This document shows, piece after piece, positions 6,102 to 63,159 of a stretch of 64,000 nt of DNA. The stretch is from an uncultured Candidatus Saccharibacteria bacterium. Its GTDB lineage: Bacteria; Patescibacteriota; Saccharimonadia; Saccharimonadales; JACDBH01. The notes below the pieces were generated by a model. The model did no database searches. It saw nothing but the letters and a program-made list of their open reading frames with translations, and was not told the origin of the DNA. The DNA lies in the NCBI GenBank assembly GCA_964490245.1, contig CAZBAF010000004.1, positions 16,072-80,071 of the forward strand, in the 5' to 3' direction. Each line of letters opens with the position of its first letter. Within the stretch, counting starts at the first letter, position 1. The position numbers and the translations under genes were made by a program.

Positions 6102-6261
6102 GCAGGTATTGTAGCGTATGTGCGTAAACCTACATTCTTCTTATTCTACATTATACCATACGGCGTCAAGTATGTCAATTCTCACCCTTGTCACAAGACT
6201 AAAGTATAAATTATAGAATACAGAGTACCGTATATCGTATTACGCATATCGTAGTACGAAT

Positions 6262-6726
6262 AAGCGGCCGGAGGCCGCTATAAAACAGTGCCCGTTAGGG
6301 CTTCTGCTTTTTTTGGGCATCGGCTTTTGCCCTGAGCGGATGTGCCAAACAGACAACGGCCAAAGGCGGCCAGGTGTTAAGCAATCCCATCCCAAGTAGC
6401 AAGGGATTGTGTGTTCTGGCCGTGCCGTTGTCTGGCTTGGCAACAGGCGCATCAAGGCAAAAACGCAGCCCAAGTTTTTTGGGTTCCGTTTTTGGCGATC
6501 CAAAAATGGAACAAGTTGCTTCTTGGTTGCAAGAAGGTATGAAAAGGAGTTAGTCTTTTTTTGCATACTTTTCTGCTGAACCAGAAAAGTATGGCGGTCA
6601 AAAGCCCGATGAGGCTTTACCGAAATTGTTTTAATAGAAAAGATAGACTTAAGACCCTACAGTGGTTTATAGAAATTACTTTGAAAATCCAAGAATAAAA
6701 CAGCCTGACTCTTGGTTCTAAGAACA
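6262..6726 (+). ncRNA. Unclassified multi-copy structured element, copy A (subtype 1, with an extra hairpin insert at 6466-6555)
   Basis: Shares the ordered scaffold and central domain with copies B and C. Stems covary and loops are conserved. The internal ORF 6240..6566(-) is not frame-conserved between copies. Confidence 0.6.
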
Positions 6727-6729
6727 AAA

Positions 6730-7782
6730 CTACATAGAAGTAGCAATACGTATCAACTGGTCGCTGTTAAGCTTGGCATCGCCCTTAATGTCATACCAGA
6801 TGCCGCCGCTGATCCAGGTAGCGTTCGATTCGCCATACAGATAAATAGTACGGCCCTTGTCTTCATAAGTATGAATATTATCGTCTGTGCTGGCAACATA
6901 GTTATCCCGCAGTGTTTCGCTGTTCCAGTTTGATTGACGCTGGGTGATGCTAAAGCTGCGCTCATCTGCATTTGACTGGAAGCTGACCGTTATTTGGCCG
7001 GGTGTGTACTGAATGTGGTGGTCCAGCGCAAAGCCTGCCGGCCGCCAGCCTGGCAAGGAGGCGTTGATGCCTGCCCTGGTGGCTGCGTAACGGATGGCAA
7101 TGTTCGGTATGTTCTGATAGGCGATAAAGGCGCCCAGCAGCAGCACGCTTAAACCGGCCGCTGCAAGACCAGTCAGGCGCCGTTTACCGGCACTGCGCTT
7201 GCGCGGTGCTTTTTTGGCGGGCTCGGTATGGCTTTGGGCGGCGCGCAGGCCGTTGTCCAGCATGGTTTGTATAGCAGACGGGCGCTGGGGGGCGCTTTTA
7301 GGTACGGGCCGGACGTTTGCCGCGGCAGCCGTTGCCGGCTTGACTTTAGCTGATGCCGACGGGCGGGCAGCTGCTTTTGGAGGTTGGGTGTTGAGGTTGA
7401 ATCTACTGACAAGTTTGCTGCGTTTGACCTCTGCTGCGCGCGCCTGGCGGGCAGGATCAACGCTCGTCGGACGCGGACCGGGCCGCTTGCCTGCCGGCCG
7501 CACCGGAGCGGCCACATCGGTCACCGGACGAACGGCTTTTGGCCGCGGCGTTGCAGCCACCGGCCTTTTGACGGCCTGACGCATCAGGGTTTTGCTGCGC
7601 TCCTGGACGCGCCGTGCCGGTATGGAGGTGCCGGCCCGCCGTACGTCCTGCAGGGCGCGCCTGACGGTGGTGGCGGTTTTTGCGACCGGCACAGGCGACG
7701 AGCCGCCGGGCCGCAGCAGGTGGCCGGTACGGGCATCATAAAGCTTGCCGTTTATTTCGATGGTTGTTTGTCGTTTGCCCAC
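6730..7782 (-). CDS. Membrane-anchored hypothetical protein (basic Pro/Ala-rich N-terminal half, possible DUF4367-like C-terminal domain)
   Basis: 350-aa ORF with one TM helix (LTGLAAAGLSVLLLGAFIAY). The C-terminal beta-rich domain assignment is tentative. Confidence 0.55.
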   Translation of the reverse strand: MGKRQTTIEINGKLYDARTGHLLRPGGSSPVPVAKTATTVRRALQDVRRAGTSIPARRVQERSKTLMRQAVKRPVAATPRPKAVRPVTDVAAPVRPAGKRPGPRPTSVDPARQARAAEVKRSKLVSRFNLNTQPPKAAARPSASAKVKPATAAAANVRPVPKSAPQRPSAIQTMLDNGLRAAQSHTEPAKKAPRKRSAGKRRLTGLAAAGLSVLLLGAFIAYQNIPNIAIRYAATRAGINASLPGWRPAGFALDHHIQYTPGQITVSFQSNADERSFSITQRQSNWNSETLRDNYVASTDDNIHTYEDKGRTIYLYGESNATWISGGIWYDIKGDAKLNSDQLIRIATSM

Positions 7783-7967: not shown

Positions 7968-9437
7968 ATGGATTTTCTAGACCCACGCCGTAAAAAAGCT
8001 CACCGCCGCCGTCTGTTTATAGGCTATATCCTGATGGGTATTGGCATAATTATCGGCACCATTACTTTATTCTATCTGGCGTATGGGTATGACATCGACC
8101 GCAAGACCGGCACGGTGATTCAAAACGGCATTGTCTTTGTCGACTCCAAGCCCGGCGGCGCGGTAATTTATTTGAACGATGTACGGCAAAACAGCCGTAC
8201 CGCTTCGCGAATGGCCCTGCCCGCCGGGGTGTACACTGTACGGCTCGAGGCCGAGGGTTACCGCCACTGGGAGCGAACTTTCAATCTGGAGGGCGGACAG
8301 ATTCAGCGGCTCGTCTATCCGTTCCTGTTGCCAAACGTTTTTGAAACTGACGATATGCATCAGTACGAGTTCCAGCCGCAGCTGACCAGCCAAAGTCCGG
8401 ATCGCCGCTGGGTGTTCGTACAGCAGCCCGGTCAGACCTATCTGTTCGATGTCTTTGATCTGCGCGATGCGCAGAAAGCACCTGTTCAGGTGCTGGTTCC
8501 GCCTGCCATACTGACCGAGCCGGCGGCGGAGGCCAGCCTGAAGTTTGTCGAATGGTCCAATGATAACCGTCATGTCCTGCTGGAGCGTACCTTTGGTGAC
8601 AGAACCGAATATATTATGCTGGACCGCGAAAACCCGGCCCAGTCGGTAAATATTAATACAATGATGGGCATAGAGCCCAGGATGCCCTCGCTGCGCAACA
8701 AGCGTCATGACCAGCTGTATTATTTGGACGCCGTACCGGGCGTGTTGCGGGTAGCTGATTTGTCCAGCCGCACAATTTCGGCACCGCTTGTTTCTTCTGC
8801 TTTGGCTTATAACTCATACGGCGATGATATTGTGCTGTTTGTAACCCAGGAGGGCATGGACGAGGGGCGGGCCGAGTTTCGGGTGCTCGAGGGTGATAAG
8901 GTGTATCCGCTCAAGTCTGTCTCGGCTGCAGATGCCTATGTCCTGGATGTGTCACGCTATAGCAACAAGTGGTACTATGTGGTCGGCAGCGCCGCGGACA
9001 ACATGGCATTTGTCTATGAAAACCCCTTGCCCGCCCTGAAGGCGCAAACCAGAACCCCGCTGATTGTGACTGCGATTTTACGGCTCGAGAACCCGCGTTT
9101 TGTAAGCTTCTCGGCTAACACGCAGTTTATCGCGCTGCAAAGCGGCAATAAGCTGCTGGTGATCGACCTCGAGGACAGCCGTCAGTACCGCACCAGCCTG
9201 ACACACGATATACCGCTGGACAGGCAGCTTAAGTGGATGGACGGCCACCGACTTTTGTTTATGGTTGGCAGCCAATCGTACATTCTTGATTTCGACGGCT
9301 CAAACGAGCAAACCCTGGTGACATCGCTGGTCGATCGGCCGTACTTTGACCGCGATTATGACAACGTGTTTACGCTGGAGCGGTCCAAGCAGGATGGCAG
9401 CCGGTTTGCTTTGACCCGGACGGTGATTGAGGATTAG
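7968..9437 (+). CDS. PEGA domain membrane protein with a C-terminal beta-propeller-like region
   Basis: 489 aa with an N-terminal TM helix and a PEGA-type motif (VDSKPGGAVIYLND...YTVRLEAEGY). Confidence 0.65.
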   Translation: MDFLDPRRKKAHRRRLFIGYILMGIGIIIGTITLFYLAYGYDIDRKTGTVIQNGIVFVDSKPGGAVIYLNDVRQNSRTASRMALPAGVYTVRLEAEGYRHWERTFNLEGGQIQRLVYPFLLPNVFETDDMHQYEFQPQLTSQSPDRRWVFVQQPGQTYLFDVFDLRDAQKAPVQVLVPPAILTEPAAEASLKFVEWSNDNRHVLLERTFGDRTEYIMLDRENPAQSVNINTMMGIEPRMPSLRNKRHDQLYYLDAVPGVLRVADLSSRTISAPLVSSALAYNSYGDDIVLFVTQEGMDEGRAEFRVLEGDKVYPLKSVSAADAYVLDVSRYSNKWYYVVGSAADNMAFVYENPLPALKAQTRTPLIVTAILRLENPRFVSFSANTQFIALQSGNKLLVIDLEDSRQYRTSLTHDIPLDRQLKWMDGHRLLFMVGSQSYILDFDGSNEQTLVTSLVDRPYFDRDYDNVFTLERSKQDGSRFALTRTVIED

Positions 9438-9440
9438 GTT

Positions 9441-9824
9441 TTAGTTCTTGCGGCCAAGAGACAGGCTGTTTCATTATTGATCGTCGAAGTTATTTCGACA
9501 AACCCTGGGGACTCTTGACTTCACTTCCTTTTATTAAAACAATTTCGGTAAAACCCCATTCAGGGCTTTTGACCGACATCCTTTCTTGTACTGACAGAAA
9601 AGTAACCAAAAGAGCTCGGCCGGGAACACATCCCGTGACTGTGCTTCCAGTCGAAAAGAACAACGACGCGGCCAGAACTCAAAAATCCTTAACTACTTGG
9701 GATGGATTTTCTTAAACATACTGGCCGCCTTGGTCGTTGTTCTTTCGACGAAGCCCAATCAGGGTATGGTTCCATGCCCAGGAAAAGCTGAAACCCGCTA
9801 AAGCGGGCGCTGTTTTTTATAAAT
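9441..9824 (-). ncRNA. Unclassified multi-copy structured element, copy C (subtype 1, reverse orientation)
   Basis: The reverse complement aligns module by module with copies A and B. The central long stem is fully compensated: GTCGAAAGAACAACGAC/GTCGTTGTTCTTTTCGAC versus GCCAAACAGACAACGG/CCGTTGTCTGGTTTGGC. Confidence 0.6.
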
Positions 9825-9880
9825 CCCTACTTTCGTCGTTTACGACTCGTCAGAACGGCTATGTTATCCGTTGAGTAGGG
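9825..9880 (-). ncRNA. Type III hammerhead self-cleaving ribozyme
   Basis: The minus strand reads CCCTAC-TC|AACGG-ATAACATAG-CCGTT-CTGACGA-GTCG-TAAA-CGAC-GAAA-GTAGGG. All core nucleotides are present: CUGANGA, GAAA, the A15.1-U16.1 pair, the G10.1-C11.1 pair and C17. Predicted cleavage is between 9873 and 9872. Confidence 0.8.
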
Positions 9881-10005
9881 TTTCATGGGGGCAGAATCGG
9901 TTTTTTGACGGTGGTTAGACCGAAAGACGGGACAATCCCATCGCGATTCAACGCCTCCATGGCCTGGATAGTCCAGGGCTTTATCGAGTCTCCGTGTCAC
10001 GGGGA

Positions 10006-10443
10006 TCAGCCGGCGTTGCGCTGCTCGTTGAGCGAGCCGATACTGGCCAGCTTGGCCTTGCTGCCGAACCGCCGCCTAACTGTGTTCGCCACCAGCACGA
10101 TCAGGAACCCGATCACGTAACTGACGTTCAGGATGATGTACAGAGCCCAGGCGGGCCGAGTTACATAGGGATTGATGCTAATAAGGTAGCAAATGAGCCC
10201 ACCGCTAATCAGGCAAACGATCAGCATTCCAATGAAGTTTTCGATGGTCTCATGTCGCTTGCCTTCGCTGATCGTTATTAGCACAATGCTGCTAGCGGCG
10301 CCGATGCCGATCAGGCTGAACCCGAACATGGCCCAGAACTGCGTTCCTGGATCGGCATCGCCGGGCAGACGGAAGCTCAGGTGCCAGCAGGCGAAGCCGC
10401 TGACGAGGAACAGGACGAGGGTTGAGGCGACGATGAGTCGCAC
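10006..10443 (-). CDS. Small multi-pass membrane protein (hypothetical)
   Basis: 145-aa ORF with four hydrophobic segments. It is flanked by copies C and B of the structured element. Confidence 0.6.
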   Translation of the reverse strand: MRLIVASTLVLFLVSGFACWHLSFRLPGDADPGTQFWAMFGFSLIGIGAASSIVLITISEGKRHETIENFIGMLIVCLISGGLICYLISINPYVTRPAWALYIILNVSYVIGFLIVLVANTVRRRFGSKAKLASIGSLNEQRNAG

Positions 10444-10582
10444 GTCACGGACGGATATGATGCTCCTTAGGGAGACTCTTGGTTGTTCCCAGGTTTGGTC
10501 AAGGGTGGAAACGTCCCTATCCTCTCATTGTAGCATACTTTAATAATATTGTCAATACCTTACCCCTGTTGATGACTAAGAA

Positions 10583-10673
10583 GTGATTAGTTATTAGTGT
10601 TTAGTGATTATAAGCCAGAAGTTAGAAGTGAGTTATTTAGTAGATGGTAGTTAGTAGATAGTAGTTGGTAAAG
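10583..10673 (+). repeat. Heptanucleotide tandem array (13 units), stop-codon rich
   Basis: GTGATTA GTTATTA GTGTTTA GTGATTA TAAGCCA GAAGTTA GAAGTGA GTTATTT AGTAGAT GGTAGTT AGTAGAT AGTAGTT GGTAAAG. The 7-nt register is strict. Confidence 0.8.
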
Positions 10674-11095
10674 GCGGCGTTAGCCGCCATTTAAAACAGC
10701 GCCCTTTAGGGCTTCTGCTGTATCTGGGCATCGGCTTTTGCCCTGAGCGGATGTGCCAAACAGACAACGGCCAAAGGCGGCCAGGTGTTAAGCAATCCCA
10801 TCCCAAGTAGCAAGGGATTGTGCGTTCTGGCCGCGCCGTTGTCTGGTTTGGCAACAGACGCATCAAGGCGAAAACGTAAGCCCGAGCTTCTTTGCATACT
10901 TTCCTCCACCCCACGAAACGGGTTTCGTGGGGGCCCCGGTTGTCGGTACAAGAAAGTATGGCGGCCGAAACCCTGAAAGGGTTTGCCGAAAATTCTTTAT
11001 TAAACAAAAAAGACGGGGTTAAGACCCCCGCAGGGCTTTACCGAAACAACTTTGAAATCCAAAAATAAAACATTCTCACTCTTAGCTGTAAAAAA
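10673..11095 (+). ncRNA. Unclassified multi-copy structured element, copy B (subtype 1)
   Basis: Full scaffold present. Near-identical to A in the central domain (10727-10890). Carries the same insert hairpin as copy F. Confidence 0.6.
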
Positions 11096-11143
11096 TTTAA
11101 AAATTAGTTCTTAATCCAAGACAAGTCATGCCCATTAAAAAAC

Positions 11144-16096: not shown

Positions 16097-17365
16097 ATGA
16101 CCGCACGATCTCCTCTGTCACCGGAACTTGCGCAGGGCGAACAGCTACTGTTTGAGAAAACTACTAATTTTATCCGCGTTACAGACGACGGCCAGTATCA
16201 ATATGCAATGCTGAAAGCGCCTATCCCGCAGTTTTTGCAGGGGCTCATCAGCTGGAGTGATACCTCTCAGGATTTTCTGATGGTAGCTGCGGCTGATATG
16301 TATGATCGCAATATTATCGACATTGCCGGGGATGATATCGAGCATACCATTGACGCCCGCAGCCTAATGGTGCCGAAAGCGCTGGACCGCAAAGCCGGCG
16401 ACGTACAGCATAGTACCCAGATCATGTTCGAGCTGGCAAACATCGCTTTTAAGGGCGTGCTGTTCAGGCCAAAGGGGCTGGATGTGCCGCGGGTTGACCG
16501 GCAGCTGTACGCATCTGACCTGCGTCATAATCATTCCGGCGGCTGGCTCGTCGATGCTTTCAGATACCGGTTGAACGCACTGAAAAGGGTCGAGACAAAA
16601 AAGAACATCGGCAAAGCGGCCGCAGGCCGCCTGCGGGAGCTGGTACCCGGCGCGGGCGAGGACGGCTTTGTGCTAGAGGAAGCACACGTGCACGATTTTA
16701 TACAGAGCGGCCGGGCAGCCACGAGGCCGCGGGCTGTTGAAGCTCTTGCCCCTGTTTTTATGGGGCGGTTTGCTGCCGGGTTGGTGCCGCTTTTAACCGC
16801 CGGCAGTGGCGAGGCCGAGTACTTGAGGCGGCGCTTTATTGATCGCGCCTACGAAGAGTTTCACGAGTCGGGAGCCAGTAAAAAAGTCGGCGAAGTACTG
16901 TTTCATAAAGAAATTGACGAGCGGGCAAAGAGGCACATTCTGGCTGGGGATGCGTATGGCGGCGGCCATCATCTGCCGCGACTGGATCCAAAATACTTCC
17001 GGGTGATCGGGCCTGTGGTCCAGATTGACGGCGGGGTAACGGGCAGCAGTCAGCGAATCAGCGTGGCCCGTACGCAGCGCATGGATAAGGACGGCCGTAC
17101 TGTGGATGACCGCGTACAGGTGTTTTTCCCGCATGAGTGGAGCGATGACGAAGTGCTGGATGCCGTATGTAATCCCAGCCGTCTTGTGCTGCACCGCGAG
17201 AAAGACGGTGTGATAGAGCAGTATATGCATGCGCGCGGTATCGCAATGAAGCGCATTCTCGGCCTGCTTGCCGACAGTGATGACGGGCCGCTGATTACAG
17301 CCTACCCCGTCGCTCATGTGTCGGCTGATCTGCAGAAGCAGCTGGGCGGCCGTCAGGCCAGCTAA
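16097..17365 (+). CDS. Hypothetical protein with a possible C-terminal bacterial EndoU-like nuclease domain
   Basis: 422 aa. The C-terminal motif RHILAGDAYGGGHH...FFPHEWSDDEVLDAV resembles the HIxxGDxxGGGH...FPxxWSxxxI signature I recall for EndoU_bacteria toxin domains. Not verified. Confidence 0.45.
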   Translation: MTARSPLSPELAQGEQLLFEKTTNFIRVTDDGQYQYAMLKAPIPQFLQGLISWSDTSQDFLMVAAADMYDRNIIDIAGDDIEHTIDARSLMVPKALDRKAGDVQHSTQIMFELANIAFKGVLFRPKGLDVPRVDRQLYASDLRHNHSGGWLVDAFRYRLNALKRVETKKNIGKAAAGRLRELVPGAGEDGFVLEEAHVHDFIQSGRAATRPRAVEALAPVFMGRFAAGLVPLLTAGSGEAEYLRRRFIDRAYEEFHESGASKKVGEVLFHKEIDERAKRHILAGDAYGGGHHLPRLDPKYFRVIGPVVQIDGGVTGSSQRISVARTQRMDKDGRTVDDRVQVFFPHEWSDDEVLDAVCNPSRLVLHREKDGVIEQYMHARGIAMKRILGLLADSDDGPLITAYPVAHVSADLQKQLGGRQAS

Positions 17366-18156
17366 GCCAGTTCAATGCTGACCGGGCAGTGATCCGAGCC
17401 CATTTGATCGGGGTGGATTTCGGCCGATTTCACTTGATCTTTCAAAGTTTCTGAAACAAGAAAATAATCGATACGCCAGCCGACGTTGCGTTCGCGGCTT
17501 TTGGCAAAATGACTCCACCAGGTGTAGTAACCGTTTCCCTGCTTGAACATGCGGAAGGTGTCAACAAAGCCCGCCGCCAGCCAGTTGTCAAAGCCCTGGC
17601 GCTCTTCCATCGTAAAGCCCTTTTTGCCCTCGTTTGGCTTGGGGTTGGCCAGGTCGTCCTCGGTGTGCGCCACATTCATGTCACCGCAGTAAATGACCGG
17701 CTTTTTCTTTTGCAGCTCGGCGCAGTAGGTCAGAATGGCTTTGTCCCATTGCTGGCGCAGCGGGATGCGGGTCAGGTCGTCTTTGGCATTTGGCGTGTAG
17801 GCGGTGACGACATAAAAATCCTCATATTCGGCAGCAATGACCCTGCCCTCGTCGTTGCTGTGGCCATAGCCGTCCGCCACCAGCCCGTTGGCCTGCACAA
17901 ACTCCTCAGGGATATCGTTGATAATAGCCAGCGGCTTGATCTTGGTAAAGATTGCCGTGCCGCTGTAGCCCTTTTTGGCTTTGGATGAGTTCCAGTATTC
18001 CTCGTACTGCGGCAGGTCAATCTCGGCCTGCCCCTGTTCTGCCTTTGTCTCCTGCAAGCACAGGATATCCGGGTCGTGCCTGGCTATAAATTTTTGAAAC
18101 TCACCTTTTCTGACGACGGCCCGTATGCCGTTGACGTTCCATGAGAATAGCTTCAT
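17362..18156 (-). CDS. xth: Exodeoxyribonuclease III
   Basis: MKLFSWNVNGIR...QETK...GSDHCPVSIELA. The ORF extends to 18234, but the conserved N-terminus starts at Met27 (18156). Confidence 0.85.
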   Translation of the reverse strand: MKLFSWNVNGIRAVVRKGEFQKFIARHDPDILCLQETKAEQGQAEIDLPQYEEYWNSSKAKKGYSGTAIFTKIKPLAIINDIPEEFVQANGLVADGYGHSNDEGRVIAAEYEDFYVVTAYTPNAKDDLTRIPLRQQWDKAILTYCAELQKKKPVIYCGDMNVAHTEDDLANPKPNEGKKGFTMEERQGFDNWLAAGFVDTFRMFKQGNGYYTWWSHFAKSRERNVGWRIDYFLVSETLKDQVKSAEIHPDQMGSDHCPVSIELA

Positions 18157-18253
18157 ACGCTGTATTGTATCGGAATCCTGATGTTTATTGCCAGCTTCGC
18201 CGTTTTTGGTGGTAAATTGTCGAAAACTTCTCATGCTGATAGACTAAAGTTCA

Positions 18254-20541: not shown

Positions 20542-20620
20542 AAAACCATGTTAGCACACCTTTTTAAAGACAGGCCTTTTAAGGATCTGGTCTCTGGGCG
20601 CCCAGATGCGCTTGTTGAAA

Positions 20621-20656
20621 ACAAAAAGACAAAAAGGGTCCGACCCTTTACAGGGG
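20621..20656. repeat. REP-like hairpin, left flank of the RAYT gene
   Basis: AAAAAGACAAAAAGGGTC-C-GACCCTTTACAGGGG. It is the inverted copy of 21338-21372. Confidence 0.6.
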
Positions 20657-20681
20657 TAAAAAATTGCAGTAACCTGTTGTT

Positions 20682-21299
20682 ATGCCCGCAAAGAATACCG
20701 TACGCGCGTTTGAGACAGGGGGATATTATCATGTCTACAACAGGGGTGCCGGCAAGCGGATTGTGTTTCATGACGACTACGACAAGGCATATTTTTTAGG
20801 CATCATTGCGCGATACCTCGACCCAAAAGTTCATGATTATGACGGTAATGGAGCGGAATATCCCAAATACGATACAGACATAGAGCTCCTCGCTTATTGC
20901 CTAATGGGCAATCACATCCACTTATTGTTCTACATAAAGCAAAGCCCGAATGCGCTATCCATGTTAGTAAAGTCCATAATGGTCAGTTACACGATGTATT
21001 TTAACTTAAAGTACAAGGAATCCGGTACGCTTTTTCAGGGTAAATATCGTGCGTCACGAATTACTCGTGATGACTACCTTCAGCACATTAGTCGCTACAT
21101 ACACCTAAATCCAAGGAACTATGCGACCTACCAGTTTTCGAGCTTTCAGGCGTACACCGGTGGCGCAGTTCCCCGCTGGTTGAATCCTCAAAGACTCCTG
21201 GCGCTTTTTAATACAAATGAGTACAAAGCATTTGTCGCTGATTACGAGGGGCATAAAGAGGCTCTTGAGTCGATACGCTCTGAGTTAGCCGACAGATAA
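20682..21299 (+). CDS. IS200-like / REP-associated tyrosine transposase (RAYT, Y1 HUH family)
   Basis: 205 aa with YHVYNRG, the HUH motif YCLMGNHIHLL, and SRYIHLNP carrying the catalytic Tyr region. Confidence 0.8.
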   Translation: MPAKNTVRAFETGGYYHVYNRGAGKRIVFHDDYDKAYFLGIIARYLDPKVHDYDGNGAEYPKYDTDIELLAYCLMGNHIHLLFYIKQSPNALSMLVKSIMVSYTMYFNLKYKESGTLFQGKYRASRITRDDYLQHISRYIHLNPRNYATYQFSSFQAYTGGAVPRWLNPQRLLALFNTNEYKAFVADYEGHKEALESIRSELADR

Positions 21300-21337
21300 G
21301 CCCCGCTAGGTGTTAACAGATGAGTGCAGAGATATAC

Positions 21338-21372
21338 CTCTGTAAAGGGTCAGACCCTTTTGTCCTTTTTAC
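21338..21372. repeat. REP-like hairpin, right flank of the RAYT gene
   Basis: CTCTGTAAAGGGTC-A-GACCCTTTTGTCCTTTTTAC. Its reverse complement matches the left-flank repeat at about 27 of 31 positions. Confidence 0.6.
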
Positions 21373-21603
21373 TTTGAGTTGGGGTCGGGCTTTTTGAGCT
21401 GGGGGCGGAACGTTTGGTTGGGTTTGTCGCTGTGTTGGCCGGTATTTAGTGTTAGCGGCTATTTAAGGTAGCGGGCGGCGTCGCGCTCTTGGTCACGCTT
21501 CTTCAAAGCCTGACGTTTATAAAGCTTCGCGCCGTAAAATCTCTCTATTTTAAATGATCTGATTTTGTCGGGCTCGGCATATAATTCTCCTTTATCAGTC
21601 GAA

Positions 21604-26073: not shown

Positions 26074-26128
26074 TAAAAAATAGTTTACGGTTTTTTATGG
26101 CAGAATGCGAGAGGGATATGGGGGAGGA

Positions 26129-26240
26129 GTGGTTAGTGGTTAGTGTCTAGTGATTAGTTATTAGTGTTTAGTGATTAGAAGCCAGAAGTGCGAAGTGAGC
26201 TAAGAGTAGATGGTAGTTAGTAGATAGTAGTTGGAATAGG
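26129..26240 (+). repeat. Heptanucleotide tandem array (16 units), stop-codon rich
   Basis: GTGGTTA x2, GTGTCTA, GTGATTA, GTTATTA, GTGTTTA, GTGATTA, GAAGCCA, GAAGTGC, GAAGTGA, GCTAAGA, GTAGATG, GTAGTTA, GTAGATA, GTAGTTG, GAATAGG. Confidence 0.8.
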
Positions 26241-26590
26241 CGACGTTAGCCGCCTATTAAAACAGCGCCCTTTAGGGCTTCGGCCTGTTCTGGCCATGCC
26301 CGCCTGCCCTGATTCGGGTGGTGTAATAAAACACAATAGAGAGCAAGGCGTCAGCCCCAATACTCAAATATGAAACTATTGGGGCCGACTGAAAGGAGTC
26401 CGCCTTACGTATTGTATTTTTGAACAACAAGCCGAGTCACGGCAGGCGGGCCGGCCGAGCTTCTTTGTATTCTTTTCTGTCGACACAGAAAAGAATGTCG
26501 GTCAAAAGCCCTGTAAGGGCTTTACCGAAATTGTTTTAATAGAAAAGATAGACTTAAGACCCCGCAGGGGTTCATCGAAATAAGTCTTAA
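26238..26590 (+). ncRNA. Unclassified multi-copy structured element, copy D (subtype 2)
   Basis: The 5' and 3' modules match subtype 1. The central domain (26292-26455) is different and is shared, with covariation, by copies E and F. Confidence 0.6.
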
Positions 26591-28802: not shown

Positions 28803-28806
28803 GCCT

Positions 28807-29290
28807 GAGTTATTGGTAGATAGTAGTTAGTAGTTGGTATATGGAATAGGCGACAAAGCCGCCATTAAAAAACGCCCGCTTTAGCGGGCTTCTGCTGTGT
28901 ATGGCAATGCCCACCTGCCCTGATTCGGCTGTTCGTCAAAAATACAATAGAGAGCGAGGACTCAGTCCAAAACTTCTACCTAAAATCAGTATGAAGTTTT
29001 GGACCGACTGGAAGGAGTCGTCCGAGCGTATTGTATTTTTGAACAACAAGCCGAGTCACGGCAGGCGGGCCGGCCGAGTTCTTTTGCATTCTTTTCTGTC
29101 GACACAGAAAAGAATGTCGGATAAAAGTCCGACAGGACTTAGCCGAAATGTCTTGTTGGCGCAAGAAAGAAAGGGTCGGTTCTTGGCTACAAGAACAAAA
29201 AGGCCCTTGAAAGGGCTGGTCGAAACTATTTAAATAAAAAGATGGTATAAAACCTGCATAACTAAGCCAAAACAAGACTTAAAATAAAAA
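28807..29290 (+). ncRNA. Unclassified multi-copy structured element, copy E (subtype 2, short heptamer leader, duplicated 3' module)
   Basis: Aligns with D and F. Two consecutive copies of the hairpin + CGAAA + AT-rich module sit at 29120-29155 and 29199-29255. Confidence 0.55.
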
Positions 29291-29395
29291 AGAATAATAA
29301 CTACACTACAAGAACTAGAAAATTACGAAAGAACACAAAACCCTGCAAAGATTTTGCAAAAACGGCCCAATATTTTTATCAAAAGCCACCAAGTC

Positions 29396-31636: not shown

Positions 31637-32041
31637 ATGCAACACGTCACCCGCAAGCAACTGGCACAGATCATCGGTGAAAAGACGATGCACATTGTTG
31701 ATCGCCGGCAGCTGGTTACCGCAGTCGCAGCGTTTTTGTCAGACGGGCATGAGTCAATCGATATAGACTCTTTGGTGCGTGACGTGATGCAGTATCGGCT
31801 CGAGCACGGCCTGGTTGAGGCGACTGCCGTCAGCGCGCATGAACTGACACCGGCAGTTATAAAAGACGTCGAGGATGTGCTCAAAGAGCGCTTTCCAGAC
31901 GCGCAGCAAATCATCATAAACCAGCGGGTTGAGCCGGAGGTGGTCGGCGGTGTGCGCATAGAGCTTCCGCGCGAAACGCTGGATTTATCAGTAAGAACAA
32001 AATTGAACACCTTAAAGCGGCTTGTTGCAGAGGAGAAATAA
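31637..32041 (+). CDS. atpH: F0F1 ATP synthase subunit delta (short form)
   Basis: 134 aa. The position in the operon and the OSCP-like C-terminus VVGGVRIE....LDLSV..KL fit subunit delta. Confidence 0.75.
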   Translation: MQHVTRKQLAQIIGEKTMHIVDRRQLVTAVAAFLSDGHESIDIDSLVRDVMQYRLEHGLVEATAVSAHELTPAVIKDVEDVLKERFPDAQQIIINQRVEPEVVGGVRIELPRETLDLSVRTKLNTLKRLVAEEK

Positions 32042-32046
32042 ATTAT

Positions 32047-32136
32047 GAAATATGAAATAAGAAATAAGAAAAATGGGAAAGACATTGGGCTACTGACTGC
32101 AGCTACCCATATTTCCTATTCCCTATTGCATATTTC
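32047..32136. repeat. Heptamer-based imperfect inverted repeat (empty IVS-like hairpin) between atpH and atpA
   Basis: The arms GAAATATGAAATAAGAAATAAGAAAAATGGG and CCCATATTTCCTATTCCCTATTGCATATTTC are complementary at 26 of 31 positions, with a 28-nt loop. Confidence 0.7.
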
Positions 32137-32157: not shown

Positions 32158-33714
32158 ATGGCGATAAAGGATGATATTTCGATTGCGGACTTGTCAGCGG
32201 ATATCCGGGCTGCGATTGCCGAGCTGAAAAAGCGTCCCGAAATAGAAGAAACAGGCATCGTTACCCGTGTCGGTGACGGCGTGGTCTGGATTTATGGGCT
32301 GACAAGTGTTGGCTATAACGAAATGGTCGAAGTCGAAGCCGCCGACGGCGGTACTATGACAGCTTTTGCCTTTAACCTGGGCAGCGAAGAGATCGGTGCG
32401 GTGCTGCTGGGTGAGGATACGCATGTCAAAGCCGGCGCTAAAGCACATCGTACCGGCAAAGTTGTCGAGGTGCCTGTTGGGCCGGAGCTGATCGGCCGCG
32501 TGGTTGACCCTATGGGCCGTCCGCTGGACGGTAAAGGCGCCATCAAAGCCAAGCAGACCAGCCCGACCGAAAAAATTGCCCCAGGCGTACTGGCGCGCAA
32601 ATCTGTCCACGAACCAATGATGACTGGTATTATCGCAATCGATGCAATGGTGCCGATTGGCCGCGGTCAGCGCGAGCTGATTATCGGCGACCGCCAGACT
32701 GGTAAGACTGCCGTGGCGCTTGACACCATGATCAACCAGCACCGCCAAAACACCGGGGTCATTAACATCTATGTCGCCATTGGTCAGAAGATGAGTAAAA
32801 TCGCCCGCCTGGTGGAGCGCCTGAAGCGCGAGGGTGTCATGGAGCAGACGATTGTGGTGGCAACCAGTGCTGCCGACCCTGCACCGCTGCAGTATCTGGC
32901 CCCGTACGCCGGTGCTGCGATGGGCGAATATTTCCGCGACAACGCCCAGCATGCTCTGATTATTTTTGACGACCTGACCAAGCACGCAGCTGCGTACCGC
33001 CAGATGTCGCTGCTATTACGCCGCCCGCCAGGACGCGAAGCGTACCCCGGTGACGTGTTCTACCTGCACAGCCGCCTGCTTGAGCGTGCCGCCAAGCTCA
33101 GTGACGAGCTGGGGGCTGGATCGCTCACTGCCCTGCCGATTATCGAGACGCAGGCCGGTGACATCAGCGCCTATATCCCGACCAACGTGATTTCTATCAC
33201 GGACGGTCAGATTTTCATGGAAACCAACCTGTTCTATCAGGGTATCCGCCCGGCTGTATCGGTCGGTTTGTCGGTGAGCCGTGTAGGCGGTAACGCCCAG
33301 ACTAAAGCTGTTAAGTCCGTTGCCAAGTCTTTGCGCGTTGATCTGGCACAGTTCCGCGAACTGGCCAGCTTTAGCCAATTCTCGACCGATCTTGACGCTG
33401 ACACCAAGCAGCGCATTGAACGCGGACAGCGTCTGACCGAACTGCTCAAGCAACCGCAATATACCCCGTACAGCACCTGGCAGATGTACGTCATGCTGCT
33501 GGCAGCAACTGAGGGGGCATTTGACGAGGTCGAGGTGCCAAAGATTAAAAAGGCCGAGGCCGCTCTGCTGCGTGAATTCAAGGCTAAACACGGTAAGCTG
33601 CTGGAGAAAATCGACAGCGGTGCCGAAGCCGAGGATAAAGAGAAAGAAGAAATCCTCAAGCTTGCCCAACATGTTGCCGAAAGCTATAAGCCAGTCGAGA
33701 AAGAAGCAAAATAA
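32158..33714 (+). CDS. atpA: F0F1 ATP synthase subunit alpha
   Basis: 518 aa with the Walker A motif GDRQTGKT and the full alpha signature. Confidence 0.95.
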
Positions 33715-33717
33715 GAC

Positions 33718-33794
33718 ATGAAATATGAAATAGGAAAAATGAAAAACGGGATCGCGATAAAAGCCCATATTCCATATTTCATATTTCATATTCC
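33718..33794. repeat. Heptamer-based imperfect inverted repeat (empty IVS-like hairpin) between atpA and atpG
   Basis: The arms ATGAAATATGAAATAGGAAAAATGAAAAACGGG and CCCATATTCCATATTTCATATTTCATATTCC are complementary at about 24 of 31 positions. Confidence 0.65.
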
Positions 33795-36489: not shown

Positions 36490-36522
36490 CTCCTAAGACT
36501 GGAGTGAGGAGTGCGGAGAGCT

Positions 36523-36972
36523 GAAATATGAAAAATGAAATAAGGAATATGGGGGATGGGGCCAAAGCCCTCAAGTCGTTCCAGCAGCTGGATGCATGGC
36601 AGGCCAGTCGTAAACTTTTCTTTATTGTTTTTCATATTACAAAAAAATTTCCCAGCGAAGAGCTGTTCGTTTCAGTGTCGCAAATGCGTCGAGCGGCACT
36701 GTCAGTGGCCTCAAACATTGCCGAAGGATTTGGCAGATCTTCCGCCGCTGATAAATTGCATTTTTATGTTATGGCAAGGGGCTCTCTGACAGAACTGCAG
36801 AACCAGATCATATTAACCAAAGACGTCGATCTCATTCGCGAGGCGGATGCGACAGTCGTCCAGTCGCAAGCTGAACTTGCCCATAAGCTTGTTGTTGGAC
36901 TTATTAAAGCTACGGAGAAGAGAAAATAATGCAGCTAATCCCCTATTTCATATTTCATATTTCATACTCCCC
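36523..36972 (+). mobile_element. IVS-like cassette: heptamer inverted repeats enclosing a four-helix-bundle ORF
   Basis: The left arm GAAATATGAAAAATGAAATAAGGAATATGGGGG pairs with the right arm CCCCTATTTCATATTTCATATTTCATACTCCCC over about 28 bp with one bulge. The architecture matches 23S rRNA intervening sequences that carry this ORF family. Confidence 0.45.
36528..36929 (+). CDS. Four-helix-bundle protein (TIGR02436 / 23S rRNA-intervening-sequence protein family, Avd-like)
   Basis: 133 aa (or 126 aa from Met8 at 36549) with F..L.AWQ......FP..E......Q.RRAA.SV.SNIAEG.GR......F...ARGSL.EL. Confidence 0.8.
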   Translation: MKNEIRNMGDGAKALKSFQQLDAWQASRKLFFIVFHITKKFPSEELFVSVSQMRRAALSVASNIAEGFGRSSAADKLHFYVMARGSLTELQNQIILTKDVDLIREADATVVQSQAELAHKLVVGLIKATEKRK

Positions 36973-50179: not shown

Positions 50180-50333
50180 GTATGTATTGATAGTTACTGT
50201 TTAGTTTATGCTTACGGTTATTGTATCAGGAAGGAGCGATTGCATAAACTATTCAGCGCAAGTATCCGGTCTTTCTTTTGGTGCTAAGCGGCAGCATGTT
50301 TTCTTTTTAGCCGGCATGCCCATGGATGGAAAA

Positions 50334-50438
50334 GTGATTAGTGATTAGTGTTTAGTGGTCAGTGATTAGTGACCAGTGACTAGAAGTGAGGAGAGAGTTA
50401 TTTAGTAGATGGTAGTTAGTAGATAGTAGTTAGTAAAG
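50334..50438 (+). repeat. Heptanucleotide tandem array (15 units), stop-codon rich
   Basis: GTGATTA x2, GTGTTTA, GTGGTCA, GTGATTA, GTGACCA, GTGACTA, GAAGTGA, GGAGAGA, GTTATTT, AGTAGAT, GGTAGTT, AGTAGAT, AGTAGTT, AGTAAAG. Confidence 0.8.
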
Positions 50439-50852
50439 GCGGCGTTAGCCGCCTATTAAAACAGTGCCCGTTAGGGCTTCTGCTTTGTTGGCCATGCACG
50501 CCTGCCCTGATTCAGGCGTTGTTCAAAAGTACAATATCTGCAAACGTGTTAGCCTGCCAACTCTATTATGAAACTTGGCAGGCCGACTGAGCCGGGGCCC
50601 CCGCAGAACCTGTTCTGTGGGGTAAGGCCGAAAGGAGTCCACGTTTGCATTGTACCTTTTGACAACTGGCTGAGTCACGGCAGGTTTTCCGCCCGAGCTT
50701 CTTTGCATCCTTTTCTCCACCCCACGAAACAGGTTTCGTGGGGACCCCGGTTGTCGATACAAGAAAGGATGTCGGTCAAAAGCCCTATAGGGGCTTTACC
50801 GAAAATGTTTTTAAAAAAAAGATGGGGTTAAGACCCCGCAGGGGGTCTATAG
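50438..50852 (+). ncRNA. Unclassified multi-copy structured element, copy F (subtype 2 with two insert hairpins)
   Basis: Aligns with D and E. The central stems are compensated (GCAAACGTG/CACGTTTGC versus AAGGCG/CGCCTT). It shares an insert hairpin with copy B. Confidence 0.6.
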
Positions 50853-50970
50853 GAGCATAGCCATTAGCAGCGTAGTACGATTTAACCAGCAGTTCGCCTC
50901 TTTACCAAAGAACACCCCGCCCCTGCCTTGCACCAGCCAGCATTTCTAGCTACACTAAACCATAAGAACT

Positions 50971-62021: not shown

Positions 62022-62199
62022 CCGCCGGCTTGATTATGCACGGTGCGTGCTGCCGGGGTGCATAGTCGCCTGACTGCTGATGGATACGGCCGCCAGGCCG
62101 ACTATGGCATGGAAGGCCAGATCAAGCTCTGTCAGACCGCTCGGCAATATGCCAAACAGATCCCTTGAAGGCAGTCCGGCAATCGCCATGCCTACATAT

Positions 62200-62550
62200 A
62201 TGACCAGTCACCGAATTTATGCCATGAGTTTTGCAAAGGTATATCCCCTGTACGTGGCCAAAGCCGAGAGAAAGGGCCGCACAAAAGCCGAGGTTGACGC
62301 AATAATCCGCTGGCTGACAGGTTACACGCAGGCGGGTTTGGAGGCAGAAATTCAGAAAGAAACAGACTTTGAGACTTTCTTTGCCCATGCTCCGGACCTC
62401 AATCCGGCGCGCAAGCAGATAACCGGCGTGATCTGCGGCATCAGGGTGGAAGACATCAAAGAACCGCTGATGCAGGAAATACGCTATCTTGATAAGCTGA
62501 TCGACGAGCTGGCCCGCGGCAAGGCGATGGAAAAGATCCTCCGGAAATAA
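62200..62550 (+). CDS. DUF2200 domain protein
   Basis: Conserved [35 protein letters not shown]. The ORF extends upstream to 62080, but the family starts near Met41. Confidence 0.75.
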
Positions 62551-62721
62551 TCGGTGCCAACCTATCCTTTTATTTCAGGTTTTATACATGCCCGTCATGT
62601 TAAACATCTCGCCATGGCTCCACATCATGCTATTCAGAACACCTGATCGCCTGTGCCTTCTATAGCGTAAGGCTGGTTGTCCGCCGAGTTTCCCCGTTCT
62701 TGCCGCGAAACTTCTATATCA

Positions 62722-62764
62722 CGACAAGAATTAGAAAACCGCCATCCTTTCAGATGACGGTTTC
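62722..62764 (-). terminator. Rho-independent terminator
   Basis: The minus strand reads GAAACCGTCATC-TGAAAG-GATGGCGGTTTTC followed by TAATTCTT. One G-T pair is valid only on the minus strand. Confidence 0.6.
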
Positions 62765-63155: not shown

Positions 63156-63159
63156 GAAC

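What the first reader, a model, noticed from the sequence alone, without database searches (positions are those of the whole stretch)
10583..11095. Six-copy family of large, modular, covarying structured-RNA-like elements that I cannot assign to any known family
There are six intergenic copies:
- A: 6262-6726 (+)
- C: 9441-9885 (-)
- B: 10583-11095 (+)
- D: 26129-26590 (+)
- E: 28807-29290 (+)
- F: 50334-50852 (+)

All share the same ordered scaffold:
1. A short GC hairpin. It reads GGCGGC-GTTA-GCCGCC, or AGCGGCC-GGA-GGCCGCT in A.
2. AAAACAG plus a hairpin (GCCC-TTTA-GGGC, or GCCCGC-TTTA-GCGGGC).
3. A conserved GCCCTGA.
4. A large central multi-helix domain.
5. A closing stem holding a variable insert. 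It reads CATACTTTC/GAAAGTATG in B, ATTCTTTTCTGT/ACAGAAAAGAAT in D and E, and CATCCTTTC/GAAAGGATG in F.
6. A hairpin, AAAGCCC-TGTA-GGGCTTT. It reads AAACCC-TGAA-GGGTTT in B and AAGTCC-GACA-GGACTT in E.
7. A conserved unpaired ACCGAAAWTGTTTTAATAGAAAAGAT.
8. A terminal hairpin, TTAAGACCCC-GCA-GGGGTT.

Stems change by paired compensatory substitutions while loops and junctions stay fixed. That pattern indicates selection on nucleic-acid structure rather than on protein. The ORFs called inside the copies lose frame between copies.

Strand assignment is provisional. Several G-T pairs fit the strands listed above, for example GACCCC/GGGGTT in D and CCCCGCAGAAC/GTTCTGTGGGG in F. Two A-C mismatches, in E and C, argue the other way.

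Six copies in 64 kb is an unusually high density for a structured element of this size.
Basis: seen in the sequence. Interest (0 to 1): 0.92.

Follow-up and report, generated by a model that had tools for sequence, protein, structure and literature searches.

The report
Mosaic hairpin-rich intergenic repeats, one with hammerhead
A small-genome Saccharibacteria (TM7) chromosome carries six inserted copies of a previously undescribed non-coding, hairpin-rich element of about 460-580 bases; one copy starts with a hammerhead ribozyme, so the element probably acts as RNA, but its function and the way it spreads are unknown.

Summary
Exactly six homologous non-coding copies (about 4.9% of the window) share an ordered set of hairpins. 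Stems are kept by compensatory changes: 22 of 91 pairs change on both sides, against 15.1±2.4 in shuffles and 5-11 in slid controls. No Rfam 15 family matches any copy.

New findings:
- The host is a Saccharimonadales (TM7/CPR) bacterium.
- Copies D, E and F sit where syntenic relatives have only 0-125 nt, so they are insertions.
- Diverged members lie at the same CobO-TerC site in three related species, and short-read contigs break inside them.
- The copies are mosaics: two types of central rod, plus optional palindromic inserts.
- The core is bracketed by TATTAAAACA/TGTTTTAATA, which could be a closing helix or a terminal inverted repeat.
- Copy C has a complete type III hammerhead ribozyme where the others have heptamer repeats and hairpin 1.
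- Otherwise the helices are about 97% Watson-Crick and show only a weak strand signal.

Best reading (confidence about 0.45): a lineage-restricted, spreading, non-coding element whose RNA structure is under selection. A purely DNA-level palindromic repeat (BIME/MITE-like) is the main rival. Transcription, cleavage and mobility are inferred, not shown.

The parts
6225..6765 (+). Copy A. Contains a heptamer-like array (6232-6262), hairpin 1 (6263-6279), TATAAAACAG (6279-6288), hairpin 2 (6290-6301), an A/B-type rod, an extra hairpin pair x/y (about 6483-6540), hairpin 5 (6564-6593), hairpin 6 (6595-6625), TGTTTTAATA (6627-6636), hairpin 8 and a tail.
   Evidence: nhmmer; tandem repeats; motif coordinates; inverted repeats
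9400..9880 (-). Copy C. The core runs from TATAAAAAACAG (9810-9821) to TGTTTTAATA (9532-9541), followed by hairpin 8 and a tail. It has no heptamers and no hairpin 1.
   Evidence: nhmmer; alignments; motif coordinates
9825..9880 (-). Type III hammerhead ribozyme motif at the 5' end of copy C: CCCUAC-UC|AACGG..CCGUU-CUGACGAG-UCG..CGA-CGAAA-GUAGGG. Stem I has 5 pairs, stem II 4 pairs and stem III 6 pairs, and the catalytic core is complete.
   Evidence: Rfam RF00008, 26.7 bits (gathering score 48.5), E 0.00054 over 181 nt and 0.19 over 64 kb. My own descriptor gives 1 hit in the window, 0 in 200 shuffles and 0 in 255 kb of the other loci fetched. The minimum-energy fold gives the three stems.
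10582..11125 (+). Contains heptamer arrays AGTGATT/TAGTAGA (10582-10670), hairpin 1 (10673-10688), hairpin 2 (10701-10712), an A/B-type rod, hairpin 5 holding a palindromic insert (10909-10932), hairpin 6 (10962-10991), hairpin 8 and a tail.
26128..26586 (+). Copy D. It fills the whole CobO-TerC spacer. Contains heptamers (26128-26232), hairpin 1 (26239-26254), TATTAAAACAG (26255-26265), hairpin 2, a D/E/F-type rod, hairpin 5 (26469-26496), hairpin 6 (26499-26530), TGTTTTAATA (26532-26541) and hairpin 8 (26556-26570).
   Evidence: empty site in relatives
28805..29382 (+). Copy E. It is inserted between the stop codon of a 228-aa gene and the atp operon promoter. It has a short heptamer array, hairpin 1 (28849-28863), a 6-bp hairpin 2 (28874-28889), a D/E/F-type rod, hairpins 5 and 6, and a diverged 3' part.
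   Evidence: insertion limits from the alignment with relatives
50333..50860 (+). Copy F. Contains heptamers (50333-50435), hairpin 1 (50438-50453), TATTAAAACAG (50454-50464), hairpin 2, a D/E/F-type rod with one palindromic insert (50599-50622), hairpin 5 with a second insert (50720-50743), hairpin 6 and hairpin 8.
   Evidence: empty site in relatives
6134..6179 (-). Consensus promoter module pointing away from copy A (TTGACATACTTGAC...TATAATGTAGAATAAGAAGAAT). The same module flanks the family member in relative L022 (10905-10949). It also occurs alone in L009.

Best explanation
This is a lineage-restricted family of non-coding, mosaic interspersed elements in Saccharimonadales (TM7, CPR) genomes. 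Members have been inserted into otherwise very short intergenic spacers.

Anatomy.
- Each member has a core of about 290-390 nt bracketed by TATTAAAACA ... TGTTTTAATA.
- The core holds hairpin 2, a 130-210-nt rod of one of two types, hairpin 5 and hairpin 6.
- Optional outer modules are heptamer arrays plus hairpin 1 at one end, hairpin 8 plus a tail at the other, and small palindromic inserts.

Proposed mechanism. In copy C a type III hammerhead takes the place of the heptamer and hairpin 1 module. It would cut the element's RNA free from the transcript of the upstream gene, 9 nt before the closing helix. The RNA structure is probably needed for the element's own maintenance, processing or spread, and not for a housekeeping function of the host.

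Shown: the repeat family, the insertions, the mosaic structure, the strong folds, the compensatory changes, the hammerhead motif, and the persistence of a member at one orthologous site in several species.

Inferred: transcription, self-cleavage, what the RNA does, and how new copies arise.
For: - Six copies and no more.
- No Rfam family.
- Strong folds.
- Compensatory changes above both controls. Examples: the hairpin-a stems GCCCCAATA, GTCCAAAACTT and GCCTGCCAA in D, E and F, and the rod base CTTTTGCC/GGCAAAAG against CCCGCCTGCC/GGCAGGCGGG.
- Loops and junctions are conserved while stems change. An example is the loop ATCCCAAGTAG in A, B and C.
- D, E and F are insertions. The spacers are 514, 635 and 790 nt here against 0-68, 51-97 and 100-125 nt in relatives at 80-86% protein identity.
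- Diverged members sit at the same CobO-TerC site in L022, L025/L026 and L028-L030. Hairpin x covaries between them (GTTCC..GGAAC against CCAGTC..GACTGG), and three of four keep an interior G-U.
- Contigs L003, L025, L026 and L028-L030 end inside the element, as expected for a multi-copy sequence.
- A complete hammerhead sits exactly at the 5' boundary of copy C, on the proposed strand. It is the only one in the window and in 255 kb of the other loci fetched.
- An interior T-G pair in CCCTGATTCGG/CCGAGTCA is conserved in C, D, E and F.
Against: - Only one of six copies has the ribozyme.
- Helices are about 97% Watson-Crick. The strand-neutral count of wobble-type mismatches is 10 against 6, which is not significant. 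Hairpin 1 of D and E has an A-C mismatch that would be a G-U on the other strand.
- No convincing promoter or terminator lies on the proposed strand, while hairpin 2 followed by a T run looks like a terminator on the opposite strand.
- No expression data are available.
- Covariation comes from two or three lineages only.
- No partner enzyme, target-site duplication or outer terminal repeat was found.
Confidence: 0.45

Rival explanations
1. A purely DNA-level palindromic mosaic repeat (BIME/REPIN/MITE-like). The hairpins and the TATTAAAACA/TGTTTTAATA inverted repeat would be recognition sites, in single- or double-stranded DNA, for a transposase acting in trans. An HUH Y1 enzyme like the one encoded at 20682-21299 is one candidate. 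Any RNA made would be incidental.
For: - The copies are insertions absent from relatives.
- They are mosaics with module exchange.
- The helices are nearly perfect Watson-Crick and strand-symmetric.
- An internal inverted repeat with hairpins just inside its arms brackets the core.
- Small palindromes are inserted into loops.
- A RAYT-like Y1 transposase gene lies in the window.
- The heptamers next to GC-rich hairpin 1 are rich in GTAG, the tag of many REP families (PMC3733652).
Against: - The hairpins flanking the RAYT-like gene occur only there and show no similarity to the family.
- There are no outer terminal repeats and no clear target duplication.
- The copies are highly diverged and lack the near-identity of a recent burst.
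- A hammerhead at the boundary of copy C has no role in a DNA-only element.
- Interior G-T pairs conserved across species are not expected for DNA recognition sites.
Confidence: 0.25
2. A terminator-plus-promoter spacer cassette read on the opposite strand. The host gene's transcript would run into the element and fold into hairpins that protect the 3' end or serve as RNase III sites. It would stop at hairpin 2 plus its T run, and an outward consensus promoter would restart the next gene.
For: - Read on the opposite strand, the element starts within 0-7 nt of the stop codon of a gene running in the same direction in A, C, D, L022, L025 and L028. In B about 50 nt of unrelated sequence come first.
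- Hairpin 2 followed by TTTT(A/T) is terminator-like in all six copies, and strongly so in C and E.
- Perfect or near-perfect sigma-70 promoters point away from A, B and L022. The A and L022 promoters are homologous although they lie at unrelated loci.
Against: - E is antisense to both of its neighbours, and F lies in a divergent spacer.
- D has no recognisable promoter for TerC.
- The hammerhead and the conserved G-U pairs are on the other strand.
- Adjacency to stop codons is expected for any insertion into spacers of 0-100 nt.
Confidence: 0.12
3. A host-encoded family of trans-acting structured non-coding RNA genes, multiplied by duplication and not mobile in any specific sense.
For: - Covarying stems with conserved loops and junctions.
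- A possible closing helix that would give a compact four-way junction.
- A weak promoter-like site on the listed strand just upstream of A, at 6190-6219.
Against: - It is absent from relatives at 80-86% protein identity at three of three sites, apart from the CobO-TerC site.
- Module content is very variable.
- There is no shared promoter or terminator.
- It takes up about 5% of a reduced genome's sequence.
Confidence: 0.1
4. A non-autonomous retroelement (SINE- or retrozyme-like). Its RNA would be released by the ribozyme and copied back into DNA by a reverse transcriptase encoded elsewhere in the genome.
For: - A hammerhead sits at the 5' boundary of one copy. Self-cleaving ribozymes are also found in R2 (HDV-like), in Penelope-like elements and in retrozymes; this comparison rests on my own knowledge.
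- Insertions without terminal inverted repeats.
- Structure conserved beyond sequence.
Against: - No reverse transcriptase is encoded in the 64 kb, as far as the larger ORFs were scanned.
- Only one hammerhead, in one copy.
- No direct long repeats and no clear target duplications.
Confidence: 0.08

Closest known systems
BIMEs / REPINs (mosaic clusters of repetitive extragenic palindromes, linked to RAYT transposases)
   Same: Intergenic, non-coding, multi-copy and hairpin-forming. Built as a mosaic of modules. Often lie just after genes. A RAYT-like gene is present in the same window.
   Different: - The units are ten times larger (a 290-390-nt core against 20-40-nt REPs).
- No short tagged palindrome is repeated throughout.
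- The hairpins flanking the RAYT-like gene are unrelated to the family.
- One member carries a ribozyme.
Bacterial MITEs (e.g. Correia/NEMIS, ERIC, RUP, BOX)
   Same: Non-autonomous insertions into intergenic DNA that fold into long hairpins when transcribed. They can bring promoters or terminators. The modular build resembles BOX elements.
   Different: - No outer terminal inverted repeats and no clear target duplication. The only inverted repeat is internal.
- The copies are strongly diverged, with compensatory changes, and not near-identical.
- The size is at or above the upper end for bacterial MITEs.
Retrozymes and other ribozyme-bearing non-autonomous retroelements of eukaryotes
   Same: Non-coding, highly structured and multi-copy, with a type III hammerhead at the element boundary.
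   Different: - Retrozymes have two hammerheads in direct long terminal repeats, and a 4-bp target duplication.
- Here a single hammerhead occurs in one of six copies.
- No reverse transcriptase is seen.
- The host is a bacterium.
HEARO / IscB omega-RNA and other multi-copy structured RNAs tied to IS200/IS605 elements
   Same: Large (a few hundred nt), ornate, many copies per genome, often without the protein gene, and part of a mobile element.
   Different: - No match to RF02033 or any other Rfam model.
- No IscB, TnpB or HNH gene among the ORFs scanned.
- No variable guide-like segment at a fixed end could be identified.
Intervening sequences (IVS) of rRNA and the IVS-like cassettes in this same window
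   Same: Inserted sequences with long self-complementary stems that sit inside transcription units. The window's atp operon holds a 23S_rRNA_IVP gene flanked by inverted heptamer arrays. The family also carries heptamer arrays.
   Different: - The heptamer sequences differ.
- The family has an array at one end only.
- It has no ORF.
- RNase III processing was not tested.

Membership tests
Any Rfam 15 family (incl. GOLLD, ROOL, HEARO, OLE, raiA, group I and II introns, small ribozymes) | Covariance-model score at or above the family's gathering score | tested here: not met
   Whole window at gathering score: two tRNAs only. Permissive searches over all six copies on both strands give only chance-level hits, plus the sub-threshold hammerhead in C.
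Hammerhead ribozyme type III (5' module of copy C only) | Catalytic core CUGANGA...GAAA, U16.1-H17 cleavage site, three stems with stem III open | tested here: met
   CCCUAC-UC|AACGG(9 nt)CCGUU-CUGACGAG-UCG(UAAA)CGA-CGAAA-GUAGGG. My descriptor gives 1 hit in the window, 0 in 200 shuffles and 0 in 255 kb of loci. The minimum-energy fold gives the three stems.
Hammerhead ribozyme type III (5' module of copy C only) | Rfam RF00008 gathering score (48.5 bits) | tested here: not met
   26.7 bits. This is a local match to model positions 7-48, which leaves out most of stem III.
Hammerhead ribozyme type III (5' module of copy C only) | Self-cleavage activity | not testable with these tools
   Needs in vitro transcription and a cleavage assay, or mapping of 5'-OH ends.
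MITE | Terminal inverted repeats at the ends of the inserted unit | tested here: inconclusive
   None at the outer ends. An internal 10-nt inverted repeat TATTAAAACA/TGTTTTAATA brackets the core in A, C, D and (imperfectly) F. It does not vary, so it cannot be told apart from an RNA closing helix (helices 2-4).
MITE | Target-site duplication flanking each copy | tested here: inconclusive
   No direct repeats at the boundaries. At E, a 3-4-nt (A)GCC at both ends is possible but too short to count. The relatives are too diverged to fix the other boundaries.
REP / BIME / REPIN with RAYT | The RAYT gene is flanked by the same palindromes that are dispersed in the genome | tested here: not met
   The flanking hairpin AAAGGGTCYGACCCTTTACAG occurs only at the two sides of the gene. 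Its arms align to the six copies no better than to shuffles.
REP / BIME / REPIN with RAYT | Short (20-40 nt) GC-rich imperfect palindrome with a GTAG or CGTC tag (PMC3733652) | tested here: inconclusive
   Hairpin 1 (GGCGGC-GTTA-GCCGCC) is preceded by GTAG-rich heptamers, with the nearest GTAG 8 nt away. This covers only one module of the element and is absent from C.
Group II intron (ORF-less) | 5' GUGYG, domain V with catalytic AGC and a bulge, domain VI, 3' AY | tested here: not met
   No hit to RF00029 or the D1-D4 models at E up to 10. No such motifs are seen on either strand.
IS200/IS605-derived element (PATE) or omega-RNA locus | A TnpA/TnpB/IscB partner, and a conserved target motif next to hairpins in direct orientation near both ends | tested here: inconclusive
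   - Hairpins 2 and 6 have the same stem (GCCC/GGGC) and lie just inside the two ends of the core.
- No TnpB or IscB was found among the ORFs scanned.
- No common flanking motif.
- The rest of the genome is not available.
Retrozyme | Two hammerheads in direct terminal repeats, giving a circular RNA | tested here: not met
   There is a single hammerhead in the window, in one copy.

The most novel reading that the evidence does not exclude
The family is a new class of large structured RNA that propagates itself in Candidate Phyla Radiation (CPR) genomes. It would be a ribozyme-processed, non-coding RNA element: a bacterial counterpart of retrozyme- or SINE-like elements, or the RNA partner of an unknown RNA-guided enzyme. 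Its four-way-junction fold, closed by the TATTAAAACA/TGTTTTAATA helix, would be the functional unit.
Probability: 0.2. Interest if true: 0.85.

Novelty: new variant of a known kind. Interest (0 to 1): 0.55.

Why it matters
Saccharibacteria and other CPR bacteria have genomes of about 1 Mb with very short spacers, and they are thought to carry few mobile elements. Here an undescribed non-coding element fills about 5% of a 64-kb stretch. It persists with compensatory changes at one orthologous site in several species, and in one copy it is coupled to a hammerhead ribozyme.

If the RNA is functional, it would be a new large structured RNA family. It would also give a rare natural context for a bacterial hammerhead, whose biological roles are still largely unknown. 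If it is only selfish DNA, it is still a new type of mosaic palindromic repeat. In that case it matters for assembling and annotating CPR genomes, because contigs break in it and spurious ORFs can be called in it.

Tried and rejected
Searches for more members that found nothing useful:
- A degenerate pattern that hits all six copies gave only chance hits in genome contigs (Limnobacter, Roseburia) and in metagenome contigs. It gave none in viral contigs.
- A second pattern gave ten viral hits with no further similarity.
- blastn 'distant' against phages and plasmids found nothing.
- I searched the protein collections with the 118-aa spurious ORF of copy B, hoping gene callers had translated related elements. 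The first search found nothing. The second found only unrelated tandem-repeat ORFs.
- A repeated look-up of the window's own GlcD protein gave nothing new.

Links that did not hold:
- A link to the RAYT-like gene through its flanking hairpins: no similarity. The 17-nt tandem repeat at 21432-21465, which looks faintly like hairpin 1, is not within 3 mismatches of it.
- Outer terminal repeats and target duplications: none.
- A long-range helix proposed by RNAalifold (TTCTGCTTTTT with GAAAAGATAGA): mostly one-sided changes and many mismatches, so I did not adopt it.

Strand assignment from bulk counts:
- G-U counts in the minimum-energy folds show no bias, 58 against 68.
- Orientation relative to neighbouring genes is not significant (3 one way, 1 the other, 2 neutral).

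Ideas left untested or unproductive:
- The tails of A, B and C might derive from the 3' end of CobO. I noticed the similarity but did not test it statistically, and I do not rely on it.
- Literature searches on Saccharibacteria or Patescibacteria combined with structured RNA, repeats or ribozymes found nothing relevant.
Full report

Yes.
- The six stretches align along their whole length. A profile built from them finds exactly these six in the window and nothing else.
- A degenerate pattern from the 5' part (TCAGGG-N9-AT-NN-CCA-N5-6-GC-N-GAA-R-CCC) hits all six and none of 100 shuffles.
- Each copy folds far better than its shuffles, on either strand (z -7.4 to -11.0).
- The ORFs inside the copies differ in frame, strand and length between copies.
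- The copies cover about 3.1 kb, or 4.9% of the window.

- C lacks the heptamers and hairpin 1.
- GCCCTGA is paired. TGA pairs with a conserved TCA at the base of a long rod.
- The 'unpaired' TGTTTTAATA is complementary to TATTAAAACA, which lies just 5' of hairpin 2.
- B and E are diverged in that 3' stretch.

**2. Known RNA families.**

Rfam 15 at gathering score gives only two tRNAs in the window. Permissive searches over every copy on both strands give chance-level hits only. The one exception is described in section 6. The models for GOLLD, ROOL, HEARO, OLE, raiA, group I and II introns and the small ribozymes are all in that library.

**3. Host and setting.**

The window is ordinary chromosome. 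It encodes the atp operon, cytochrome oxidase, GltX, SmpB, UvrD-like helicase, sortase and two-component systems. The closest named homologues of two of its proteins come from Candidatus Saccharimonadales / Saccharibacteria. The same species is seen only in one NCBI assembly and one read set, SRR7082966.

**4. The copies are insertions.**

Relatives at 80-86% protein identity keep the gene order but have short spacers.

| Site | Spacer in relatives | Spacer here | Copy |
|---|---|---|---|
| pyr-redox / GlcD | 100-125 nt | 790 nt | F |
| CobO / TerC | 0, 27 or 68 nt | 514 nt | D |
| 228-aa gene / atpZ (orthology) | 51-97 nt | 635 nt | E |

At E the alignment places the insertion between the stop codon and the atp promoter. 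About 200 kb of DNA fetched from these relatives holds no copy, apart from the CobO-TerC members described in section 5.

**5. The family is older than this species.**

The closest relative is L022 (GCA_964642275.1, CobO 86% identical). It has a 330-nt hairpin-rich element at the same CobO-TerC site and in the same relative orientation (z -7.1).
- It shares hairpin 2 plus TTCTGC, a long rod, a TTGTTTTTATG stretch and hairpins x and y.
- It resembles copy A (nhmmer E 1e-11) more than the co-located copy D. This points to exchange between copies or to repeated insertion at this site.

Two further species carry the x/y part directly after CobO (L025/L026 and L028-L030), and their contigs end there. 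Contig L003 from the window's own read set also ends inside copy F. Contigs that break this way suggest that these genomes hold several copies.

Across these species hairpin x keeps its inner TTTTTG/CAAAAA. Its outer part changes on both sides (GTTCC/GGAAC against CCAGTC/GACTGG). Three of four sequences keep an interior G-U.

**6. A hammerhead in copy C.**

CCCUAC-UC|AACGG-AUAACAUAG-CCGUU-CUGACGAG-UCG-UAAA-CGA-CGAAA-GUAGGG (window 9880-9825, minus strand)

- This is a complete type III hammerhead: the CUGANGA and GAAA core, U16.1 and C17, stem I of 5 pairs, stem II of 4 and stem III of 6.
- Rfam scores it at 26.7 bits, below the gathering score of 48.5, as a local match that omits most of stem III.
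- My own descriptor finds it once in the window, never in 200 shuffles, and never in 255 kb of the other loci fetched.
- The minimum-energy fold is the three-stem structure.
- It ends 9 nt before TATAAAAAACAG and hairpin 2.
- The gene upstream on that strand (10006-10443) has a near-consensus promoter. A read-through transcript would therefore be cut to release the element's RNA.

The chance that the only hammerhead lies within a few bases of a copy's boundary by accident is well under 1%. I take it as linked to the element.

**7. Structure and covariation.**

I counted a structure on the six-sequence alignment. It combines the RNAalifold helices with the closing helix I added, and I marked one long-range RNAalifold helix separately as doubtful. 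Results:
- 83.8% of cells are paired (shuffles 76.8%).
- 22 of 91 pairs change on both sides (shuffles 15.1 ± 2.4, 0 of 500 reach it; slid controls 5-11).
- The covariation score is 0.256 against 0.142.
- Sixteen of the 22 pairs are in the rod, where they mostly separate A/B/C from D/E/F.
- The closing helix never covaries, so it could equally be a terminal inverted repeat.

Some hairpins keep their place with unrelated stems. Hairpin a in D, E and F is one example, and hairpin 2 has 4 pairs in four copies and 6 pairs in C and E. Loops and junctions stay fixed: ATCCCAAGTAG, CCGAGCTTCTTTG, ACCGAAA.

The statistical weight is limited by having two or three lineages.

**8. Which strand, and RNA or DNA?**

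Bulk counts do not decide.
- G-U pairs in the minimum-energy folds number 58 on the listed strand and 68 on the other.
- Folding without G-U gives about 920 Watson-Crick pairs with only 29 single mismatches: 10 G-T, 6 A-C and 13 others.
- Such near-perfect, symmetric pairing is unusual for a functional RNA. It is what DNA palindromes look like.

The strand-specific signals that do exist favour the listed strand.
- The hammerhead lies on it.
- The interior T-G in CCCTGATTCGG/CCGAGTCA is conserved in C, D, E and F.
- The G-U in hairpin x is conserved in three species.

Against the listed strand:
- Hairpin 1 of D and E has an A-C mismatch.
- Hairpin 2 followed by a T run looks like a terminator on the opposite strand, clearly so in C and E.

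**9. Mosaic make-up.**
- A and B share a rod at 95% identity. C has a diverged version of it.
- D and E share another rod type, and F has a version with an insert.
- B and F share the 5' arrays and a 24-nt palindrome in hairpin 5 (CCCCRCRRAAC-NN-GTTYYGYGGGG). This palindrome occurs three times in the window, only inside copies.
- A and D share the 3' part.
- A has an extra x/y hairpin pair related to its own tail.

This pattern suggests recombination among copies.

**10. Flanking features.**
- Heptamer arrays (AGTGATT, TAGTAGA) precede hairpin 1 in B, D and F. A has a different seven-base periodic stretch, and E a short array.
- Perfect or near-perfect sigma-70 promoters point away from the hairpin-1 end of A and B.
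- The A promoter module recurs next to the L022 member at an unrelated locus. It also occurs alone in L009, where it is followed by a terminator.
- Read on the opposite strand, the element starts within 0-7 nt of a stop codon in A, C, D and the three relatives. In B about 50 nt of unrelated sequence come first. Any insertion into such short spacers would show this adjacency.
- No outer terminal repeats and no clear target duplications were found.

**11. What it most likely is.**

It is a lineage-restricted, spreading, non-coding element. Its fold is kept by selection that most likely acts on the RNA of the listed strand, and one variant is released from a host transcript by a hammerhead (confidence about 0.45).

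The rivals are:
- a purely DNA-level BIME/MITE-like palindromic repeat (0.25);
- an opposite-strand terminator-plus-promoter spacer cassette (0.12);
- a non-mobile family of trans-acting RNA genes (0.10);
- a retroelement (0.08).

Nothing here shows transcription, cleavage or the way copies arise.

**12. Comparison with known kinds.**

It behaves like bacterial interspersed palindromic repeats and like multi-copy element-borne RNAs such as HEARO. It fails or leaves open every membership test I could run:
- no Rfam match;
- no outer terminal repeats or target duplication (MITE);
- the hairpins flanking the RAYT-like gene are unrelated (REP/REPIN);
- a single hammerhead in one copy (retrozyme);
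- no group II motifs.

I therefore rate it a new variant of a known kind, of moderate interest. The rating would rise sharply if the RNA proves to be processed and functional.

Noticed in passing
window 20618-21375 (gene 20682-21299, +): A 205-aa distant HUH Y1 transposase: Pfam Y1_Tnp E 3e-9; NCBIfam REP-associated tyrosine transposase at 40 bits, below its cut-off of 80. It has HIH and YIHLNP motifs. It is flanked by 61-nt inverted repeats, each holding the hairpin AAAGGGT-CYG-ACCCTTT followed by ACAGRGGTA. That hairpin occurs nowhere else in the window. This looks like a RAYT-like gene with its own terminal repeats.
   Followed up: partly
window 36522-36966; also 32029-32136 and 33702-33794: A 133-aa 23S_rRNA_IVP (four-helix-bundle) gene sits between atpD and atpC, flanked by inverted heptamer arrays (TGAAATA)n ... 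(TATTTCA)n. Two ORF-less hairpins made of the same arrays lie before atpA and between atpA and atpG. Relatives have small unannotated ORFs at the same places in the atp operon (L010, L022, L023). This may be a second family of small inserted cassettes.
   Followed up: partly
window 6134-6179 (-); L022 10905-10949 (+); L009 3065-3113 (-): A conserved consensus promoter with its first transcribed bases (TTGAC(A/T)..TATAATGTAnAnTAAGAAGAAT) occurs at three unrelated loci in three genomes. In L009 it is followed about 55 nt later by a clean terminator (CCCGGGTCTTTTGGCCCGGGTTTTG), like a small RNA gene. In the window it drives the DUF1697 gene.
   Followed up: partly
window 10909-10932, 50599-50622, 50720-50743: A 24-nt near-perfect palindrome (CCCCRCRRAAC-NN-GTTYYGYGGGG) occurs three times, only inside loops of the family's hairpins (once in B, twice in F). 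It behaves like a tiny insertable module.
   Followed up: partly
L022 10969-11562 (-): Between the L022 family member with its promoter module and TerC lies a further ~700 nt with a called 197-aa ORF on the opposite strand and no Pfam hit. It is absent from the window and from other relatives.
   Followed up: no
window 62786-62818 and 63202-63234; 62000-64000: Two identical 33-nt direct repeats (TGGCTGGGGTTATGTGACATACTTCGCAACTTT) lie 416 nt apart and bracket a 112-aa pyrophosphatase-like ORF fragment. They sit in the only low-GC stretch of the window (43.6% against about 53%).
   Followed up: no
window 16097-17365 (+) and 17362-18234 (-): A 422-aa protein with a weak bacterial EndoU nuclease domain lies next to an exo/endonuclease/phosphatase-family gene. 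This may be a toxin-like locus.
   Followed up: no
window 21432-21465: A tandem 17-nt repeat (GTGTTRGCSGSTATTTA x2) just outside the RAYT-like gene's right repeat looks faintly like the loop and 3' arm of hairpin 1 plus TATTAA. It is not within 3 mismatches of it.
   Followed up: partly
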